Below, piece by piece: positions 1 to 29,543 of a DNA stretch of 64,000 nucleotides (positions are counted from its first letter, which is position 1; each line of letters starts with the position of its first letter). The stretch comes from Escherichia coli (GTDB lineage: Bacteria > Pseudomonadota > Gammaproteobacteria > Enterobacterales > Enterobacteriaceae). The notes beneath the pieces were generated by a model, which did no database searches, was not told the DNA's origin, and was given only the letters and a program-made list of their open reading frames with translations. The position numbers and the translations under genes are program-made. The stretch lies in NCBI RefSeq assembly GCF_044324785.1, contig NZ_CP172127.1; one strand, written 5' to 3'.

Positions 1-992
1 ACAATGCGGCTGGCAAAGTAATCCATATTGTCGTAAATCTTGCGCAGGGAATCGGCCGAGATTGTCAGGCTGGAGGCGCTGGCCCCGCTGATTTTGCCGG
101 TTTCCAGTAAATGCACCACCGATTCCTGTAGCACTTCCGAATACATCATAAACGGAGGAATTTCCGGGTTTTCCCCCAGACGCGCCATTACCGCATTATT
201 GATATTGCCCACGCCACTTTGCAGCGGCAGAAATTCCGGCGGAATACGCCCATGCGCCATTTCCTGCAACAAGAACGTGACCACGTTATCGGCAATCTGC
301 TGGCACATGGGATTTTGCTTATCCAGCATATTACCGGCGTCGGGCAAGTTGGTTTCCACGACGGCGACAATCTTTTTCGGATCGATTTGCACATAGCGGG
401 TACCGACGCGATCCATTGCATGGAAGATCGACACGCTATTGCGCCGCGGTGGCGCGCCAGGAATCACAATATCTGCCAGTTCTGCAACGCGCGGATCGTG
501 ATAGTGATTGAGTTCAATGATCACTTTCTTCGCCCGCAGCAGCCAGGTCGGCGCATTACCGATCCCGCTGGTTAACCAGACTCGACCATCCGGTGCCAGT
601 GCCGATGCTTCAATGACGGCAACATCAATGTCGCCGAAGAAACCGTAATTGACCATTTGCGCCACTTCGCTCAAATGCAGGTCAACGAAACTCACCGCGC
701 CCTGATTGATCTTTTTACGTAAACCGGACGATGTTTGATATGGCGCACGCCAGGAAACAGCATCGGCGTCAGAAAGTACATCGTCAGCGGCGGCGCTGAT
801 TGACGCACCCGTCAGCAGGCGAATTTGATACGGCTTTTTGGCCTCATGCTGTTCGTTAGCTCTGCGGGCAATCGCGGTGGGTAAGGCTTTCGGCGAACCC
901 GCTGGGGTAAAGCCGCTAAATGCCACCATGTCGTTATGCTGGATAATTTCTGCCGCTTCATCGGCGGTCATCCTTGTCCACTGAGTTTCCAT
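1..992 (-). CDS. scpC: propionyl-CoA:succinate CoA-transferase; 5-prime ~330 codons only, the 3-prime end runs off the window start
   Basis: Minus-strand frame open from window edge to ATG at 990-992; translation begins METQWTRMTADEAAEIIQHNDMVAFSGF; AAGGAG RBS just upstream; directly downstream of scpB. Confidence 0.85.
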   Translation of the reverse strand, partial: METQWTRMTADEAAEIIQHNDMVAFSGFTPAGSPKALPTAIARRANEQHEAKKPYQIRLLTGASISAAADDVLSDADAVSWRAPYQTSSGLRKKINQGAVSFVDLHLSEVAQMVNYGFFGDIDVAVIEASALAPDGRVWLTSGIGNAPTWLLRAKKVIIELNHYHDPRVAELADIVIPGAPPRRNSVSIFHAMDRVGTRYVQIDPKKIVAVVETNLPDAGNMLDKQNPMCQQIADNVVTFLLQEMAHGRIPPEFLPLQSGVGNINNAVMARLGENPEIPPFMMYSEVLQESVVHLLETGKISGASASSLTISADSLRKIYDNMDYFASRI

Positions 993-1811: not shown

Positions 1812-2807
1812 TTAATCAAAATATTGCGTCTGGATAAATTCACTGAGCTGTCGCAGGCCGGTGCGCGGTGAGAGCGTATTGTTTTTGACCGCTAAAAGCG
1901 TCTGGCGGTAATAGCGATCGAAATCTTCATTCGCGAACAGGTGATTCAGTACTTCTTCTTCGGTTTGTTTACGCAGCCATTCCACCGATTGTTGTTGCCG
2001 CACTTGTTGTAATCGACCACTGGCAGTTAGCGCGGTTTTGAAGTCGATGATGGCGTGCCAGATCTCATCGATTCCACGTTTTTCCAGTGCGCTACAAGTC
2101 AGAACCCGTGGCTGCCATTCGTCGTATTTACGTCGCAGAATATGCAGGGCACTCTCGTACATATGCCGGGCAATGGCGATATTGGTATGGTTATCGCCAT
2201 CGTCTTTGTTGATAACGATCAGATCTGCCACTTCCATCAGCCCCTTTTTAATGCCCTGCAGATCATCGCCGCCACCGGCAATTTGCAACGAGATAAAACA
2301 GTCCACCATGCGGGCGACTTCCGTTTCTGACTGCCCGACGCCAACCGTTTCGACAATCACTACGTCATAACCCGCCGCTTCGCATAACAGCATTAATTCC
2401 CGCGCTCGCTGACTGGCACCGCCCAGATGGCCGGAGGAGGGTACCGGGCGAATAAACGCCGCCTCGGCACGCGCCAGGTCATTCATGCGGGTTTTATCCC
2501 CGAGGATGCTACCGCCAGTGACCGGGCTGCTAGGATCGACCGCAATAACCGCAACCTTTAGTCCCTCACGAATCAACAACATGCCAAAGGCTTCAAGAAA
2601 GGTACTTTTCCCCGCGCCGGGTGTGCCGGTAACACCCAGTCGCAGGGCGTTACCACAGAACGGCATAATGGCATCAAGCAGCTGCGTACTTAGCGCCTGA
2701 TGACGCGGGTGACGGCTTTCCACCAGCGTCATGGCCTGGGCGAGCGTGGCACGCTCACCCTGACGTAAGCGGCGAATACTTTCTGCCAGCGTGGCTTCAT
2801 TAATCAT
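1812..2807 (-). CDS. argK: MeaB-like GTPase accessory protein of methylmalonyl-CoA mutase, 331 aa
   Basis: P-loop GTPGAGKST visible; overlaps scpA stop by 8 nt; operon position. Confidence 0.9.
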
Positions 2808-7338: not shown

Positions 7339-8571
7339 ATGGCAAAGGTATCGCTGGAGAAAGACAAGATTAAGTTTCTGCTGGTAGAAGGCGTGCACCA
7401 AAAGGCGCTGGAAAGCCTTCGTGCAGCGGGTTACACCAACATCGAATTTCACAAAGGCGCGCTGGATGATGAACAATTAAAAGAATCCATCCGCGATGCC
7501 CACTTCATCGGCCTGCGATCCCGTACCCATCTGACTGAAGACGTGATCAACGCCGCAGAAAAACTGGTCGCTATTGGCTGTTTCTGTATCGGAACAAACC
7601 AGGTTGATCTGGATGCGGCGGCAAAACGCGGTATCCCGGTATTTAACGCACCGTTCTCAAATACGCGCTCTGTTGCGGAGCTGGTGATTGGCGAACTGCT
7701 GCTGCTATTGCGCGGCGTGCCGGAAGCCAATGCTAAAGCGCACCGTGGCGTGTGGAACAAACTGGCGGCGGGTTCTTTTGAAGCGCGCGGCAAAAAGCTG
7801 GGTATCATCGGCTACGGTCATATTGGTACGCAATTGGGCATTCTGGCTGAATCGCTGGGAATGTATGTTTACTTTTATGATATTGAAAATAAACTGCCGC
7901 TGGGTAACGCCACTCAGGTACAGCATCTTTCTGACCTGCTGAATATGAGCGATGTGGTGAGTCTGCATGTACCAGAGAATCCGTCCACCAAAAATATGAT
8001 GGGCGCGAAAGAAATTTCACTAATGAAGCCCGGCTCGCTGCTGATTAATGCTTCGCGCGGTACTGTGGTGGATATTCCGGCGCTGTGTGACGCGCTGGCG
8101 AGCAAACATCTGGCGGGGGCGGCAATCGACGTATTCCCGACGGAACCGGCGACCAATAGCGATCCATTTACCTCTCCGCTGTGTGAATTCGACAACGTCC
8201 TTCTGACGCCACACATTGGCGGTTCGACTCAGGAAGCGCAGGAGAATATTGGCCTGGAAGTTGCGGGTAAATTGATCAAGTATTCTGACAATGGCTCAAC
8301 GCTCTCTGCGGTGAACTTCCCGGAAGTCTCGCTGCCACTGCACGGTGGGCGTCGTCTGATGCACATCCACGAAAACCGTCCGGGCGTGCTAACTGCGCTG
8401 AACAAAATCTTCGCCGAGCAGGGCGTCAACATCGCCGCGCAATATCTACAAACTTCCGCCCAGATGGGTTATGTGGTTATTGATATTGAAGCCGACGAAG
8501 ACGTTGCCGAAAAAGCTCTGCAGGCAATGAAAGCTATTCCGGGTACCATTCGCGCCCGCCTGCTGTACTAA
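7339..8571 (+). CDS. serA: D-3-phosphoglycerate dehydrogenase, 410 aa
   Basis: Full-length ORF; NAD-binding GIIGYGHIGTQLG; C-terminal ACT-like region. Confidence 0.95.
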   Translation: MAKVSLEKDKIKFLLVEGVHQKALESLRAAGYTNIEFHKGALDDEQLKESIRDAHFIGLRSRTHLTEDVINAAEKLVAIGCFCIGTNQVDLDAAAKRGIPVFNAPFSNTRSVAELVIGELLLLLRGVPEANAKAHRGVWNKLAAGSFEARGKKLGIIGYGHIGTQLGILAESLGMYVYFYDIENKLPLGNATQVQHLSDLLNMSDVVSLHVPENPSTKNMMGAKEISLMKPGSLLINASRGTVVDIPALCDALASKHLAGAAIDVFPTEPATNSDPFTSPLCEFDNVLLTPHIGGSTQEAQENIGLEVAGKLIKYSDNGSTLSAVNFPEVSLPLHGGRRLMHIHENRPGVLTALNKIFAEQGVNIAAQYLQTSAQMGYVVIDIEADEDVAEKALQAMKAIPGTIRARLLY

Positions 8572-8591
8572 TTCCCCTTCTCTGAAAATCA

Positions 8592-8623
8592 ACGGGCAGG
8601 TCACTGACTTGCCCGTTTTTTTA
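8592..8623 (+). terminator. rho-independent terminator of serA
   Basis: ACGGGCA...TGCCCGT stem followed by TTTTTTT. Confidence 0.75.
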
Positions 8624-8757
8624 TCGCTTCTCCACACCGTTGCCGCGTTGTGCATTCGGCTTTGCGAGTCTGCTCCAGAAAATAAATCAAAGTCAGATCA
8701 ATGCGTTGTGTTTATTTAATGGGGATTTACGATGGCAGGGCAGCATGGGGCTGTAAC

Positions 8758-8899
8758 GGTAAAGCCCTCACCGAAGCGAGGGCTTGAAGGAGAAGGGTTA
8801 TGATGCGACTTGTCATCATACTGATTGTACTGTTACTCATAAGTTTCCCAGCTTATTAACAGTCAGTCTCAGGGGAGGAGTCATCCTCCCTTACCCTTA
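8758..8899 (-). ncRNA. sibC: SibC antisense sRNA (antitoxin of ibsC); boundaries approximate
   Basis: Minus-strand TTGACA (8929-8934) - 17 nt - TAATTT (8906-8911) promoter; GCCCTC..GAGGGC hairpin plus UUU at 8764-8783; ~140 nt fully overlapping ibsC on opposite strand. Confidence 0.65.
8800..8859 (+). CDS. ibsC: type I toxin, 19-aa hydrophobic peptide IbsC (MMRLVIILIVLLLISFPAY)
   Basis: ATG ATG CGA CTT GTC ... TAT TAA read directly; GAAGGAGAAGG RBS 4-14 nt upstream; location in serA-ygfA intergenic region. Confidence 0.8.
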   Translation: MMRLVIILIVLLLISFPAY

Positions 8900-8959
8900 C
8901 TCACTAAATTAGGTTAAAGAATCAACGATGTCAATCAGGGCGATGCAGGTGTGTCGCCC

Positions 8960-9508
8960 TTACCACTCCCAGACTTTCGACGGTGTAACCACCGCAGGAA
9001 GTGGGATATCCCACTCTTCAACGGGGAGTTTTTCCACCAACTGACAATCATGCGCATAACCCACCGGTTGCATTTGATAGCGCTGCCAGTTTTGTAAGGT
9101 CCGATCATAAAAACCACCGCCCATTCCCAGGCGCTGACCGTACTCATCAAAGGCGACCAGCGGTGTGATCAACACGTCTAATCGGGAAAGGGGTAGCACG
9201 TCACGCACATCCAGTTTTGGCTCATGGATCTTCAACCTGTTCATCACCAGTTCGCTTTGCGGATGGTAATTCAGGAACAGCAAATTACCGGCACTAAAGG
9301 GATGCAAAACTGGAAGATATACGCGCTTACCGGCGCGCCAGAGTTGTTCTATGAGTGGCTGGGTGTCGAGTTCGCCATCAAAAGAGAGGAATACAGCGAC
9401 CGTATGCGCCATCACCACTGGGGGATACGTCATCATCCGGGTAGCGGCTTGTTGACCCATTTCCTGCTGTTGTTCCGGCGTTAACGCACGACGACGTTGC
9501 CGAATCAT
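8960..9508 (-). CDS. ygfA: 5-formyltetrahydrofolate cyclo-ligase family protein, 182 aa (alternative ATG at 9562 would give 200 aa)
   Basis: ORF 8960..9706 trimmed because its 5-prime 66 codons overlap the 6S RNA gene; MIRQRRRALTPEQQQEMGQQAATR N-terminus. Confidence 0.8.
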   Translation of the reverse strand: MIRQRRRALTPEQQQEMGQQAATRMMTYPPVVMAHTVAVFLSFDGELDTQPLIEQLWRAGKRVYLPVLHPFSAGNLLFLNYHPQSELVMNRLKIHEPKLDVRDVLPLSRLDVLITPLVAFDEYGQRLGMGGGFYDRTLQNWQRYQMQPVGYAHDCQLVEKLPVEEWDIPLPAVVTPSKVWEW

Positions 9509-9582
9509 TTTGCGGATTTCTTGTCGGGATAATGTCAGTGGGAGTTCTGGTAGTTGCGTCATGGCTGGTGCCAGATAAGAAG

Positions 9583-9766
9583 GGAATCTCCGAGATGCCG
9601 CCGCAGGCTGTAACCCTTGAACCCTTGGTTCAAGGTGAATGTGTCGTCGCAGTTTTAAGGCTTCTCGGACGGACCGAGCATGCTCACCAACCGCGGAGCG
9701 CCACATTCTTGTGGTATGAAATATCGGCTCAGGGGACTGGCCCGCTTGCGAACATCTCAGAGAAAT
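9583..9766 (-). ncRNA. ssrS: 6S RNA (RNA polymerase sigma70-holoenzyme regulator), ~184 nt
   Basis: Reverse complement reads ATTTCTCTGAGATGTTCGCAAGCGGGCCAGTCCCCTGAGCCGATATTTCATACCACAAGAATGTGGCGCTCCGCGGTTGGTGAGCATGCTCGGTCCGTCCGAGAAGCC..., matching the 6S RNA sequence as I recall it; immediately upstream of ygfA. Confidence 0.9.
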
Positions 9767-28354: not shown

Positions 28355-28444
28355 CGTCATCTTCTCTATAAAAAAGAGCGTGGATTGGGTACAATCCCGC
28401 TCTTATCACCGCATTTTGACTAGCTCAATAAAAGAAATCAGACC

Positions 28445-29543
28445 ATGTTTGAAATTAATCCGGTAAATAATCGCATTCAGGACCTCACGGAACGCTCCGA
28501 CGTTCTTAGGGGGTATCTTTGACTATGACGCCAAGAAAGAGCGTCTGGAAGAAGTAAACGCCGAGCTGGAACAGCCGGATGTCTGGAACGAACCCGAACG
28601 CGCACAGGCGCTGGGTAAAGAGCGTTCCTCCCTCGAAGCCGTTGTCGATACCCTCGACCAAATGAAACAGGGGCTGGAAGATGTTTCTGGTCTGCTGGAA
28701 CTGGCTGTAGAAGCTGACGACGAAGAAACCTTTAACGAAGCCGTTGCTGAACTCGACGCTCTGGAAGAAAAACTGGCGCAGCTTGAGTTCCGCCGTATGT
28801 TCTCTGGCGAATATGACAGCGCCGACTGCTACCTCGATATTCAGGCAGGCTCTGGCGGTACGGAAGCACAGGACTGGGCGAGCATGCTTGAGCGTATGTA
28901 TCTGCGCTGGGCAGAATCGCGTGGTTTCAAAACTGAAATCATCGAAGAGTCGGAAGGTGAAGTGGCGGGTATTAAATCCGTGACGATCAAAATCTCCGGC
29001 GATTACGCTTACGGCTGGCTGCGTACAGAAACTGGCGTTCACCGCCTGGTGCGTAAGAGCCCGTTTGACTCCGGCGGTCGTCGCCACACGTCGTTCAGCT
29101 CTGCGTTTGTTTACCCGGAAGTTGATGATGATATTGATATCGAAATCAACCCGGCGGATCTGCGCATTGACGTTTATCGCGCGTCCGGCGCGGGCGGTCA
29201 GCACGTTAACCGTACCGAATCTGCGGTGCGTATTACTCACATCCCAACTGGGATCGTGACCCAGTGCCAGAACGACCGTTCCCAGCACAAGAACAAAGAC
29301 CAGGCCATGAAGCAGATGAAAGCGAAGCTTTATGAACTGGAGATGCAGAAGAAAAATGCCGAGAAGCAGGCGATGGAAGATAACAAATCCGACATCGGCT
29401 GGGGCAGCCAGATTCGTTCTTATGTCCTTGATGACTCCCGCATTAAAGATCTGCGCACCGGGGTAGAAACCCGCAACACGCAGGCCGTGCTGGACGGCAG
29501 CCTGGATCAATTTATCGAAGCAAGTTTGAAAGCAGGGTTATGA
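28445..29543 (+). CDS. prfB: peptide chain release factor 2, 365 aa, made by programmed +1 frameshift at codon 25/26 (CTT TGA C at 28517-28523)
   Basis: Frame 0 ATG 28445 [25 protein letters not shown] then in-frame TGA; +1 frame continues [18 protein letters not shown]... to 29543; SPF and GGQ motifs present. Confidence 0.9.
28508..28523 (+). promoter_or_regulatory. prfB autoregulatory frameshift site: internal Shine-Dalgarno AGGGGG then CTT TGA C
   Basis: Read directly: agggggtatctttgac. Confidence 0.9.

What the first reader, a model, noticed from the sequence alone, without database searches (positions are those of the whole stretch)
8745..8910. Type I toxin-antitoxin pair ibsC/sibC hidden in the serA-ygfA intergenic region
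A 19-codon ORF (MMRLVIILIVLLLISFPAY) with a strong RBS sits inside a region that, on the opposite strand, has a near-consensus sigma70 promoter (TTGACA-17-TAATTT) and a terminator hairpin delimiting a ~140-nt antisense RNA. This arrangement is not visible to ordinary ORF calling.
Basis: partly seen in the sequence, partly recalled or inferred. Interest (0 to 1): 0.5.

Follow-up and report, generated by a model that had tools for sequence, protein, structure and literature searches.

The report
Known E. coli ibsC/sibC toxin-antitoxin pair

Summary
Window 8800..8859 (+) encodes MMRLVIILIVLLLISFPAY behind an AAGGAG Shine-Dalgarno. On the minus strand, 8934..8784 matches Rfam RF00113 (SIB_RNA) at 136.5 bits against a gathering score of 56.

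An ungapped 98% alignment to E. coli K-12 MG1655 places SibC at 8898..8758 (-), 141 nt, between serA and fau (ygfA), as in K-12 (sibC b4446, ibsC b4665). RefSeq annotates the same ORF as "toxin IbsC" in genomes with an identical intergenic region.

Published K-12 work shows that the peptide depolarises the membrane and kills when overexpressed. It also shows that SibC represses ibsC through two recognition domains: TRD1, which targets the ORF, and TRD2, which targets the ribosome-binding site.

The only coding difference from K-12 is codon 17, CCA (Pro) here against AGC (Ser). It lies in the apical loop of TRD1. The exact 61-nt core carrying it is in 939 of 5,422 complete E. coli genomes, and Pro is the family consensus at that position.

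Verdict: already known, low interest. Toxicity and expression of this particular allele are inferred, not tested.

The parts
8929..8934 (-). sibC promoter -35 hexamer TTGACA
   Evidence: Read. The pattern is unique in the window and appeared in 0 of 100 shuffles. TTGAC is invariant in the five K-12 sib promoters. It also forms positions 1-6 of the Rfam SIB_RNA model.
8906..8911 (-). sibC promoter -10 hexamer TAATTT (3 of 6 matches to TATAAT; 17-nt spacer; 7 nt to the transferred +1)
   Evidence: T, A and the final T are invariant among paralogs. The consensus scan does not call it. An E-sigmaS ChIP-seq peak was reported at the K-12 sibC promoter (PMC4447067).
8758..8898 (-). SibC antitoxin RNA, 141 nt (ends transferred from the K-12 annotation)
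   Evidence: K-12 sibC b4446 is 141 nt and aligns without gaps. Rfam RF00113 scores 136.5 bits. The MFE fold is -55.3 kcal/mol, z = -4.9. The consensus fold with the paralogs has 44 pairs, 10 of them with compensatory changes.
8831..8853 (-). TRD1 of SibC (+46..+68; P5 arm and apical loop), which pairs within the ibsC ORF. It differs from K-12 at +49..+51.
   Evidence: Domain limits come from Han et al. 2010 (PMC2943612), transferred through alignment A1. The loop position comes from the fold. Differences were counted.
8784..8800 (-). TRD2 of SibC (+99..+115; single-stranded J1/7), complementary to the ibsC Shine-Dalgarno and start codon. Identical to K-12.
   Evidence: PMC2943612. C107, C109 and C110 map to window 8792, 8790 and 8789, the Gs of AAGGAG. 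Identity to K-12 is shown.
8762..8785 (-). SibC intrinsic terminator hairpin (10 bp, UUCG loop) followed by UUUACC
   Evidence: Fold of -17.8 kcal/mol, z = -4.5. Four stem pairs show compensatory changes among paralogs.
8740..8898 (+). ibsC mRNA (159 nt as defined by Han et al.; the 5' end comes from primer extension in K-12, the 3' end is nominal)
   Evidence: PMC2943612 gives a 159-nt mRNA with an 18-nt 5' overhang beyond the SibC 3' end. The numbering cross-check G50/G51/G53 = 8789/8790/8792 holds. The fold is -63.1 kcal/mol, z = -5.0.
8787..8792 (+). ibsC Shine-Dalgarno AAGGAG, 7 nt upstream of the ATG
   Evidence: Read. Identical to K-12.
8800..8859 (+). ibsC coding sequence: 19 codons plus stop, MMRLVIILIVLLLISFPAY
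   Evidence: Translation. RefSeq WP_071525914.1 'toxin IbsC' sits at the same place in strain N3. 18 of 19 residues match K-12 IbsC.
8848..8850 (+). Codon 17: CCA (Pro) here, AGC (Ser) in K-12. This is SibC +49..+51 in the TRD1 apical loop.
   Evidence: The exact 61-nt core containing it is in 939 of 5,422 complete genomes.
8871..8892 (+). Hairpin after the ibsC stop codon (9 bp, GUCA loop), the mirror image of the SibC 5' hairpin P2. Probable ibsC 3' structure or terminator.
   Evidence: Fold. The loop bases 8881-8882 differ from K-12 but the stem is unchanged.
8706..8733 (+). Candidate ibsC promoter (TTGTGT, 16 nt, TACGAT), 6 nt upstream of the transferred +1. The hexamers are inferred only.
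   Evidence: Han et al. report conserved promoter elements upstream of the mapped start, but the figure is not held. TACGAT is conserved among ibsC alleles but not across paralog groups. The scanner does not call it.

Best explanation
This is the chromosomal type I toxin-antitoxin pair ibsC/sibC of Escherichia coli. The plus strand gives a ~159-nt mRNA (about 8740..8898) that encodes IbsC, a 19-residue hydrophobic peptide. When made in excess, IbsC inserts into the inner membrane, depolarises it and stops growth. The minus strand gives the 141-nt SibC RNA (8898..8758) from a promoter with a perfect -35. SibC is fully complementary to the whole functional mRNA. It first contacts the mRNA through two exposed regions. 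One is the apical loop of its long P5 arm (TRD1, 8853..8831), which pairs inside the ORF. The other is a single-stranded stretch before its terminator (TRD2, 8800..8784), which covers the Shine-Dalgarno and start codon. Pairing then spreads, blocking translation and making the duplex a substrate for RNase III, so the toxin is kept off. The copy in this window is a common natural allele. Codon 17 is Pro instead of the K-12 Ser, and the same three bases change the TRD1 loop. Because both RNAs are read from the same DNA, complementarity is preserved automatically. What is shown here: sequence identity, family membership, synteny, predicted structures and allele frequency. What is taken from published K-12 work: transcript ends, toxicity, and the TRD1/TRD2 mechanism. 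What is inferred: that this Pro17 allele is expressed, toxic and repressed in the same way.
For: Rfam RF00113 SIB_RNA matches at 136.5 bits (gathering score 56), full length 1-147. The region aligns without gaps at 98% to K-12 sibC b4446 / ibsC b4665 in the same serA-fau position. The ORF translation is identical to RefSeq 'toxin IbsC' WP_071525914.1. 5,425 of 5,426 complete E. coli genomes carry the intergenic region. The SibC fold has z = -4.9 and reproduces the published P1, P2, P5, P6, J1/7 and terminator layout. 10 of 44 consensus pairs show compensatory changes among paralogs. The promoter pattern is unique in the window and its core is conserved in all five K-12 sib genes. The mechanism comes from Han et al. 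2010, PMC2943612, and the review PMC8309996. The paper's pairings G50/G51/G53 with C110/C109/C107 fall exactly on the AAGGAG Gs after coordinate transfer. TRD2, the SD, the start codon and all other codons are identical to K-12. Pro at residue 17 also occurs in K-12 IbsB and IbsE. The allele's 61-nt core is in 939 of 5,422 genomes.
Against: Nothing contradicts it. The gaps are these. There are no expression data for this strain. Toxicity and repression have been demonstrated for the K-12 Ser17 allele, and I found no test of Pro17. The founding paper (Fozo et al. 2008) and the IbsC mutagenesis paper (Mok et al. 2010) are not in the held library, so their results are cited second-hand. The -10 hexamer and the terminator tail are weak by consensus, and the generic scanner calls neither. 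The physiological role of chromosomal Ibs/Sib pairs remains unknown in the literature.
Confidence: 0.95

Rival explanations
1. The locus is a decayed, non-functional copy. The Ser17-to-Pro change would break the C-terminal part of the helix and abolish toxicity, leaving an inert ORF plus an sRNA with nothing to repress.
For: Per the review PMC8309996, the C-terminal residues (6-19) of IbsC are required for toxicity. Pro is a helix breaker. Pro17 IbsC itself has not been tested, as far as the held literature shows.
Against: Pro occupies the same position in K-12 IbsB and IbsE, the latter annotated as a toxic peptide, and Pro is the family consensus there. Position 17 is the most variable residue in the family (S, P, Q, A, H), which indicates tolerance. 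The ORF, SD and start codon are intact, and the rest is identical to K-12. The allele's 61-nt core is present without disruption in 939 genomes.
Confidence: 0.04
2. The RNA is the only functional product. SibC would act mainly in trans on other targets, or the element would be just a 'QUAD' intergenic repeat, and the short ORF would be incidental.
For: The repeats were first described as intergenic repeats or sRNAs before the ORF was recognised (Rudd 1999, cited). A 19-codon ORF on its own is not statistically remarkable. SibC has been used as a scaffold for trans-acting artificial sRNAs (PMC3616725).
Against: The ORF keeps its frame, its M-M start, its hydrophobic core and its S-F-x-x-Y end across five paralogs and all sampled alleles, despite nucleotide divergence. 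A canonical SD sits 7 nt upstream. Published work shows toxicity of Ibs peptides and lethality of ibs expression without the cognate Sib.
Confidence: 0.01

Closest known systems
ibsC/sibC of Escherichia coli K-12 MG1655 (b4665 / b4446; SibC formerly RygC / QUAD1c)
   Same: Same intergenic position (serA-fau). Same 141-nt RNA and 60-nt ORF in the same register. Same promoter hexamers, SD, TRD2 and terminator. Ungapped identity of 98% over 230 nt, and 18 of 19 residues identical.
   Different: Codon 17 is CCA (Pro) instead of AGC (Ser), which is three bases in the TRD1 apical loop (SibC +49..+51). Two bases differ in the loop of the 5' hairpin (8881-8882) and one in the promoter spacer (8915). 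The UUCA (YUNR) tetranucleotide in the ibsC mRNA loop is absent here, while the SibC loop keeps CUGG.
Paralogous pairs ibsA/sibA, ibsB/sibB, ibsD/sibD, ibsE/sibE (Rfam RF00113 SIB_RNA)
   Same: Same architecture: an 18-19-aa hydrophobic ORF wholly inside a ~140-nt antisense RNA. Same secondary structure with compensatory changes, and a conserved -35 and -10 core.
   Different: Different loci (yegL-mdtA and yqiK-hldE). They are 68-84% identical at the peptide level. TRD1 differs from the window's at 2-7 positions, and TRD2 differs from it in all four paralogs. Han et al. identify these two domains as the discriminators between cognate and non-cognate pairs.
Other type I toxin-antitoxin pairs with small membrane toxins (hok/Sok, ldr/Rdl, tisB/IstR-1, shoB/OhsC, zorO/OrzO)
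   Same: A small hydrophobic toxin whose mRNA is repressed by base pairing with an sRNA. Overexpression depolarises the membrane.
   Different: In Ibs/Sib the antitoxin spans the entire functional mRNA, including the ribosome-binding site and ORF. The peptide is among the shortest, at 19 aa. There is no sequence similarity to those families.

Membership tests
Sib antitoxin RNA (Rfam RF00113 SIB_RNA) | Match to the family covariance model at or above the curated gathering score | tested here: met
   136.5 bits against a gathering score of 56, E = 5e-28, model positions 1-147 of 147, window 8934..8784 (-). Note that the model begins at the -35 box, so its coordinates are not the transcript's.
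Sib antitoxin RNA (Rfam RF00113 SIB_RNA) | Conserved secondary structure (P1 closing stem, 5' hairpin, long P5 arm, P6 hairpin, terminator) supported by covariation | tested here: met
   The MFE fold has z = -4.9. The consensus of the window plus five K-12 Sib RNAs has 44 pairs, 10 of them with both-sides changes. The sample is small (6 sequences, 2 nearly identical).
Sib antitoxin RNA (Rfam RF00113 SIB_RNA) | Own promoter and intrinsic terminator delimiting a ~140-nt transcript | tested here: met
   By sequence only. TTGACA-17-TAATTT is unique in the window and its core is conserved in the paralogs. The terminator hairpin has z = -4.5. Transferred ends give 141 nt. A generic consensus scan calls neither element.
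Sib antitoxin RNA (Rfam RF00113 SIB_RNA) | The RNA is actually transcribed and accumulates | not testable with these tools
   Shown by Northern blot for K-12 in the literature (PMC2943612, PMC4447067). There are no expression data for this strain.
Ibs type I toxin | An 18-19-residue, highly hydrophobic ORF on the strand opposite to Sib and wholly inside it, with its own SD | tested here: met
   8800..8859 (+) lies inside 8758..8898 (-). AAGGAG sits 7 nt upstream. 19 aa: MMRLVIILIVLLLISFPAY.
Ibs type I toxin | Sequence similarity to characterised Ibs peptides | tested here: met
   95% identical to K-12 IbsC and 68-84% identical to IbsA, B, D and E. M1, M2, I6, I7, L11, L12, S15 and Y19 are invariant. 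The sequence is identical to RefSeq WP_071525914.1 'toxin IbsC'. Pfam and NCBIfam profile scans could not be run because the peptide is below the tools' minimum lengths.
Ibs type I toxin | Toxic on overexpression (membrane depolarisation, loss of viability) | not testable with these tools
   Reported for K-12 IbsC with Ser17 (review PMC8309996). I found no test of the Pro17 allele.
ibsC/sibC orthologue specifically (rather than another Ibs/Sib copy) | Conserved genomic position between serA and fau (ygfA), and the C-type TRD2 | tested here: met
   The gene order rpiA-serA-[ibsC/sibC]-fau-ssrS-zapA is the same as in K-12. TRD2 is identical to K-12 SibC and distinct from all paralogs.
Type I toxin-antitoxin system | The antitoxin RNA represses the toxin mRNA by base pairing, with cognate specificity | not testable with these tools
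   Demonstrated for the K-12 pair by co-transformation, gel shift and structure probing (PMC2943612). Here only the perfect complementarity (same DNA) and the conservation of TRD2, the SD and the start codon can be shown.

The most novel reading that the evidence does not exclude
The most novel reading not excluded is that codon 17 of Ibs, which is the apical TRD1 loop of Sib, acts as a diversifying 'address'. On this reading it is kept different between the Ibs/Sib copies that share a cell, and RNA-level selection for orthogonality drives amino-acid change at a tolerant position of the toxin. Several observations hint at this. The CCA/AGC dimorphism has no intermediates in the sampled genomes. 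Five different residues (S, P, Q, A, H) occur at this one position. In strain N3, which has this ibsC allele, the two yqiK-hldE copies carry Gln and His with TRD1s that are 3-4 nt away. A corollary is that the YUNR motif in the ibsC mRNA loop, proposed as important for first contact, is dispensable, because this allele, whose 61-nt core is in 939 of 5,422 complete genomes, lacks it.
Probability: 0.3. Interest if true: 0.25.

Novelty: already known. Interest (0 to 1): 0.07.

Why it matters
It matters little as a discovery. The ibsC/sibC pair was described in 2008, its recognition mechanism was dissected in 2010, the RNA is an Rfam family, and the toxin is routinely annotated in RefSeq. The finding's value is as a positive control: a reader working from raw sequence correctly recovered a 19-codon gene and its antisense RNA. 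There is a minor practical point. Automated RefSeq annotation of non-K-12 genomes lists ibsC but not sibC, so half of the pair is still missing from most records. A minor biological point is that the natural Pro17 allele changes the very loop that makes first contact with the target. It could serve as a ready-made natural variant for testing how much of TRD1 and the YUNR motif is really needed.

Tried and rejected
(1) The generic sigma-70 and terminator scan over 8560..8980 found neither the sibC promoter nor its terminator, only the serA terminator. I did not take this as evidence of absence, because the -10 (3 of 6) and the T-poor tail fall below the scanner's thresholds, while paralog conservation and folding support both.

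(2) Fozo et al. 2008 and Mok et al. 2010 could not be read. A search for Fozo 2012 found only citing papers. Their results are cited through Han et al. 2010 and a 2021 review.

(3) Pfam, NCBIfam and PADLOC profile scans of the peptide were not possible, because 19 aa is below the tools' minimum lengths. Identity to RefSeq and K-12 proteins was used instead.

(4) A position-by-position comparison with strain N3 looked like massive divergence. This was a register artefact from a few indels. blastn shows one collinear 64-kb alignment at 99.0%.

(5) I considered whether the Pro17 allele brings SibC's TRD1 close enough to SibD's to cause cross-talk, since it is 2 nt from K-12 SibD against 4 nt for K-12 SibC. 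This got no support. In strain N3, which carries this allele, the D/E-locus copies have themselves diverged and are 3-4 nt away, and TRD2 is distinct. N3 is only a 99% proxy for the window's strain.

(6) A sub-threshold Rfam hit to sraA at 8583..8687 (-), 20.5 bits against a gathering score of 56, E = 0.88, was dismissed as chance.

(7) The ibsC promoter hexamers could not be confirmed. They are conserved among ibsC alleles but not across paralog groups, and the published figure is not held.

Full report
OBSERVATION. Window 8800..8859 on the plus strand translates to MMRLVIILIVLLLISFPAY followed by a stop. At 19 codons it falls below the 20-aa floor of the ORF lister and is absent from its output. 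AAGGAG lies at 8787..8792, 7 nt before the ATG.

On the minus strand, TTGACA (8934..8929), a 17-nt spacer and TAATTT (8911..8906) are present. This composite pattern occurs once in the 64-kb window and in none of 100 dinucleotide-preserving shuffles. 'Near-consensus' holds for the -35 and the spacer only. The -10 matches TATAAT at 3 of 6 positions, and a generic sigma-70 scan does not call the promoter.

The hairpin AAGCCCUCGC-UUCG-GUGAGGGCUU (8785..8762, minus strand) folds at -17.8 kcal/mol, z = -4.5. It is followed by UUUACC, a T-poor tail that the terminator scan also misses. The flanking genes are serA (7339..8571, +) and 5-formyltetrahydrofolate cyclo-ligase fau/ygfA (8960..9562, -).

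WHAT IT IS. Three independent comparisons identify the locus.

First, an Rfam scan of the whole window gives two matches above gathering score. One is 6S RNA at 9583..9766 (-). The other is SIB_RNA (RF00113) at 8934..8784 (-), with 136.5 bits against a gathering score of 56, over the whole model. The Rfam model starts at the -35 box, so its coordinates are not those of the transcript.

Second, the 388-nt serA-fau intergenic region is found in 5,425 of 5,426 complete E. coli genomes. It is 100% identical in six of the listed genomes, where RefSeq annotates the ORF as 'type I toxin-antitoxin system toxin IbsC' (WP_071525914.1).

Third, the curated K-12 MG1655 record carries sibC (b4446, 141 nt) and ibsC (b4665, 60 nt, wholly inside sibC on the other strand) between fau and serA. 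The window aligns to it without gaps at 98% identity.

Transferring the K-12 ends gives SibC = 8898..8758 (-) and ibsC = 8800..8859 (+). The window as a whole is ordinary core E. coli chromosome. It is collinear with strain N3 at 99.0% over 64 kb, running scpC ... argP-rpiA-serA-ibsC-fau-ssrS-zapA-ygfB-pepP ... xdhA.

ANATOMY. The 141-nt RNA folds at -55.3 kcal/mol, z = -4.9. The predicted fold has the following parts:
- a closing stem P1 (+1..+6 with +101..+106);
- a 5' hairpin (+9..+26);
- a long arm whose apical loop is +48..+55;
- a hairpin at +79..+100;
- a single-stranded stretch at +107..+113;
- the terminator.

This is the layout described by Han et al. 2010 from structure probing (PMC2943612). 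A consensus fold of the window's SibC with the five K-12 Sib RNAs has 44 pairs, 10 of which keep pairing through changes on both sides, including four in the terminator stem. In the promoters, TTGAC and the T, A and final T of the -10 are invariant in all six sequences.

Han et al. mapped the ibsC mRNA start by primer extension and used a 159-nt mRNA with an 18-nt 5' overhang beyond the SibC 3' end. That puts ibsC +1 at window 8740. As a check, the paper states that G50, G51 and G53 of the mRNA pair with C110, C109 and C107 of SibC. With these coordinates, those positions are window 8789, 8790 and 8792, exactly the Gs of AAGGAG.

The hairpin after the ibsC stop codon (8871..8892) is the mirror image of the SibC 5' hairpin, and the SibC terminator is the mirror image of a hairpin in the ibsC 5' leader. 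The ibsC promoter hexamers (candidate TTGTGT-16-TACGAT, 8706..8733) are inferred only. They are conserved among ibsC alleles but not across paralog groups.

HOW IT WORKS. From the literature, all of it on K-12: Ibs peptides of 18-19 hydrophobic residues damage the envelope and are lethal when over-produced, and constitutive Sib RNA represses them (citing Fozo et al. 2008). IbsC depolarises the membrane within minutes and induces the psp operon, and residues 6-19 are needed for toxicity (review PMC8309996).

SibC has two independent target-recognition domains. TRD1 (+46..+68, P5 loop) targets the ORF. TRD2 (+99..+115, J1/7) targets the translation-initiation region. Initial contacts spread into flanking sequence, and the duplex is cut by RNase III in vitro. 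Swapping TRD1 or TRD2 for those of SibD retargets SibC to ibsD. E-sigmaS binds the sibC promoter region in ChIP-seq, and two SibC species are seen on Northern blots (PMC4447067).

In the window, TRD1 is 8853..8831 and TRD2 is 8800..8784. TRD2, the SD, the start codon and 18 of 19 codons are identical to K-12. I therefore infer the same mechanism here. Expression, toxicity and repression of this particular allele are not shown.

WHAT DIFFERS FROM K-12. Inside the transcribed region there are two differences.

The first is in the loop of the 5' hairpin (8881-8882), which leaves the stem intact.

The second is the whole of codon 17, CCA (Pro) against AGC (Ser). This corresponds to SibC +49..+51, in the apical TRD1 loop. 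Because both RNAs come from the same DNA, complementarity is preserved.

The exact 61-nt core around this codon is in 939 of 5,422 complete genomes. In seven sampled sequences, codon 17 is either CCA or AGC, with no intermediates. Other natural alleles (V5A, and F16L in an O157:H7 strain) keep the ORF intact.

Pro is also found at this position in K-12 IbsB and IbsE, with Gln in IbsA and Ala in IbsD. In strain N3 the two yqiK-hldE copies have Gln and His. Residue 17 is thus the family's most variable position, and Pro is its consensus, which argues against the idea that this allele is disabled.

Two small consequences follow. The UUCA (YUNR) tetranucleotide in the ibsC mRNA loop, which Han et al. 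suggested might matter for first contact, is absent here (UUCC), while the SibC loop keeps a YUNR (CUGG). Also, the window's TRD1 is 2 nt from K-12 SibD's TRD1 rather than 4. However, in strain N3, which has this allele, the D/E-locus copies are 3-4 nt away and TRD2 is distinct, so I see no evidence of lost discrimination.

COMPARISON AND NOVELTY. Every sequence-level defining feature of the Sib RNA family, the Ibs toxin family and the sibC/ibsC orthologue was tested and met. The functional features (transcription, toxicity, cognate repression) cannot be tested with these tools and rest on K-12 experiments. The locus is already known, and the allele is a common natural variant.

The claim that the arrangement is invisible to ordinary ORF calling is only partly true. 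A length-filtered ORF list misses it, but PGAP annotates ibsC in RefSeq genomes. What PGAP leaves out in non-K-12 records is sibC.

VERDICT. Observation confirmed. Interpretation supported. Already known. Interest is low (0.07). The only mildly open thread is whether the hypervariable codon 17 / TRD1 loop is kept different among co-resident copies by selection for orthogonality. That could be tested on the 5,426 complete genomes, but it is suggested here by only two genomes.

Noticed in passing
window 9583..9766 (-): 6S RNA (ssrS), Rfam RF00013 at 139.8 bits. It lies upstream of fau on the same strand as sibC, so ssrS, fau and sibC are co-directional.
   Followed up: partly
window 8935..8960 (-): The fau stop codon (8960) is only 26 nt from the sibC -35. 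The hairpin between them is weak (the 46-nt segment containing it has z = -1.6) and has no T-run. Read-through from the ssrS-fau operon into sibC therefore seems possible and might contribute to the second, longer SibC species reported on Northern blots (PMC4447067).
   Followed up: partly
window 8591..8617 (+): A strong intrinsic terminator follows serA: a 12-bp stem (7 G-C pairs) and then TTTTTAT. It was the only terminator the generic scan called in the intergenic region.
   Followed up: no
window 8848..8850; L014 214..273 and 590..649: Residue 17 of Ibs peptides, which is the apical TRD1 loop of Sib RNAs, is the family's hypervariable spot. It is S or P in ibsC alleles, Q, P, A and P in K-12 IbsA, B, D and E, and Q and H in the two yqiK-hldE copies of strain N3. 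The CCA/AGC dimorphism showed no intermediates in 7 sampled sequences. It could have arisen by two compensating 2-nt indels (TTTC[CC]AGC-TTAT against TTTC-AGC[GC]TTAT).
   Followed up: partly
window 8669..8737: The region upstream of the ibsC transcription start is much more divergent between E. coli lineages than the transcribed ibsC/sibC segment 8740..8898. Strains E2865 and O157:H7 86-24 differ from the window at 16-20 positions upstream, against 2-4 in the transcribed segment. The candidate -10 TACGAT is unchanged.
   Followed up: no
window 1812..2807 (-): meaB/argK (methylmalonyl-CoA mutase-associated GTPase) is an intact 331-aa ORF here, but is annotated as frameshifted in the otherwise 99%-identical strain N3.
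   Followed up: partly
L001 / L010 (strain N3) against L002 (K-12): RefSeq PGAP records annotate the ibsC CDS but not the sibC ncRNA. Only the curated K-12 record lists sibC. The antitoxin half of the pair is therefore missing from the PGAP-annotated records examined here.
   Followed up: partly
window about 28440..29540 (+), by collinearity with L010: prfB, with its programmed +1 frameshift, lies in the window according to the N3 annotation. The small proteins YqfH and YqfG lie near 31.7-31.9 kb. Coordinates were not re-verified in the window itself.
   Followed up: no
window 8583..8687 (-): A sub-threshold Rfam hit to sraA (20.5 bits against a gathering score of 56, E = 0.88) overlaps the serA terminator region. 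I judged it to be chance.
   Followed up: yes
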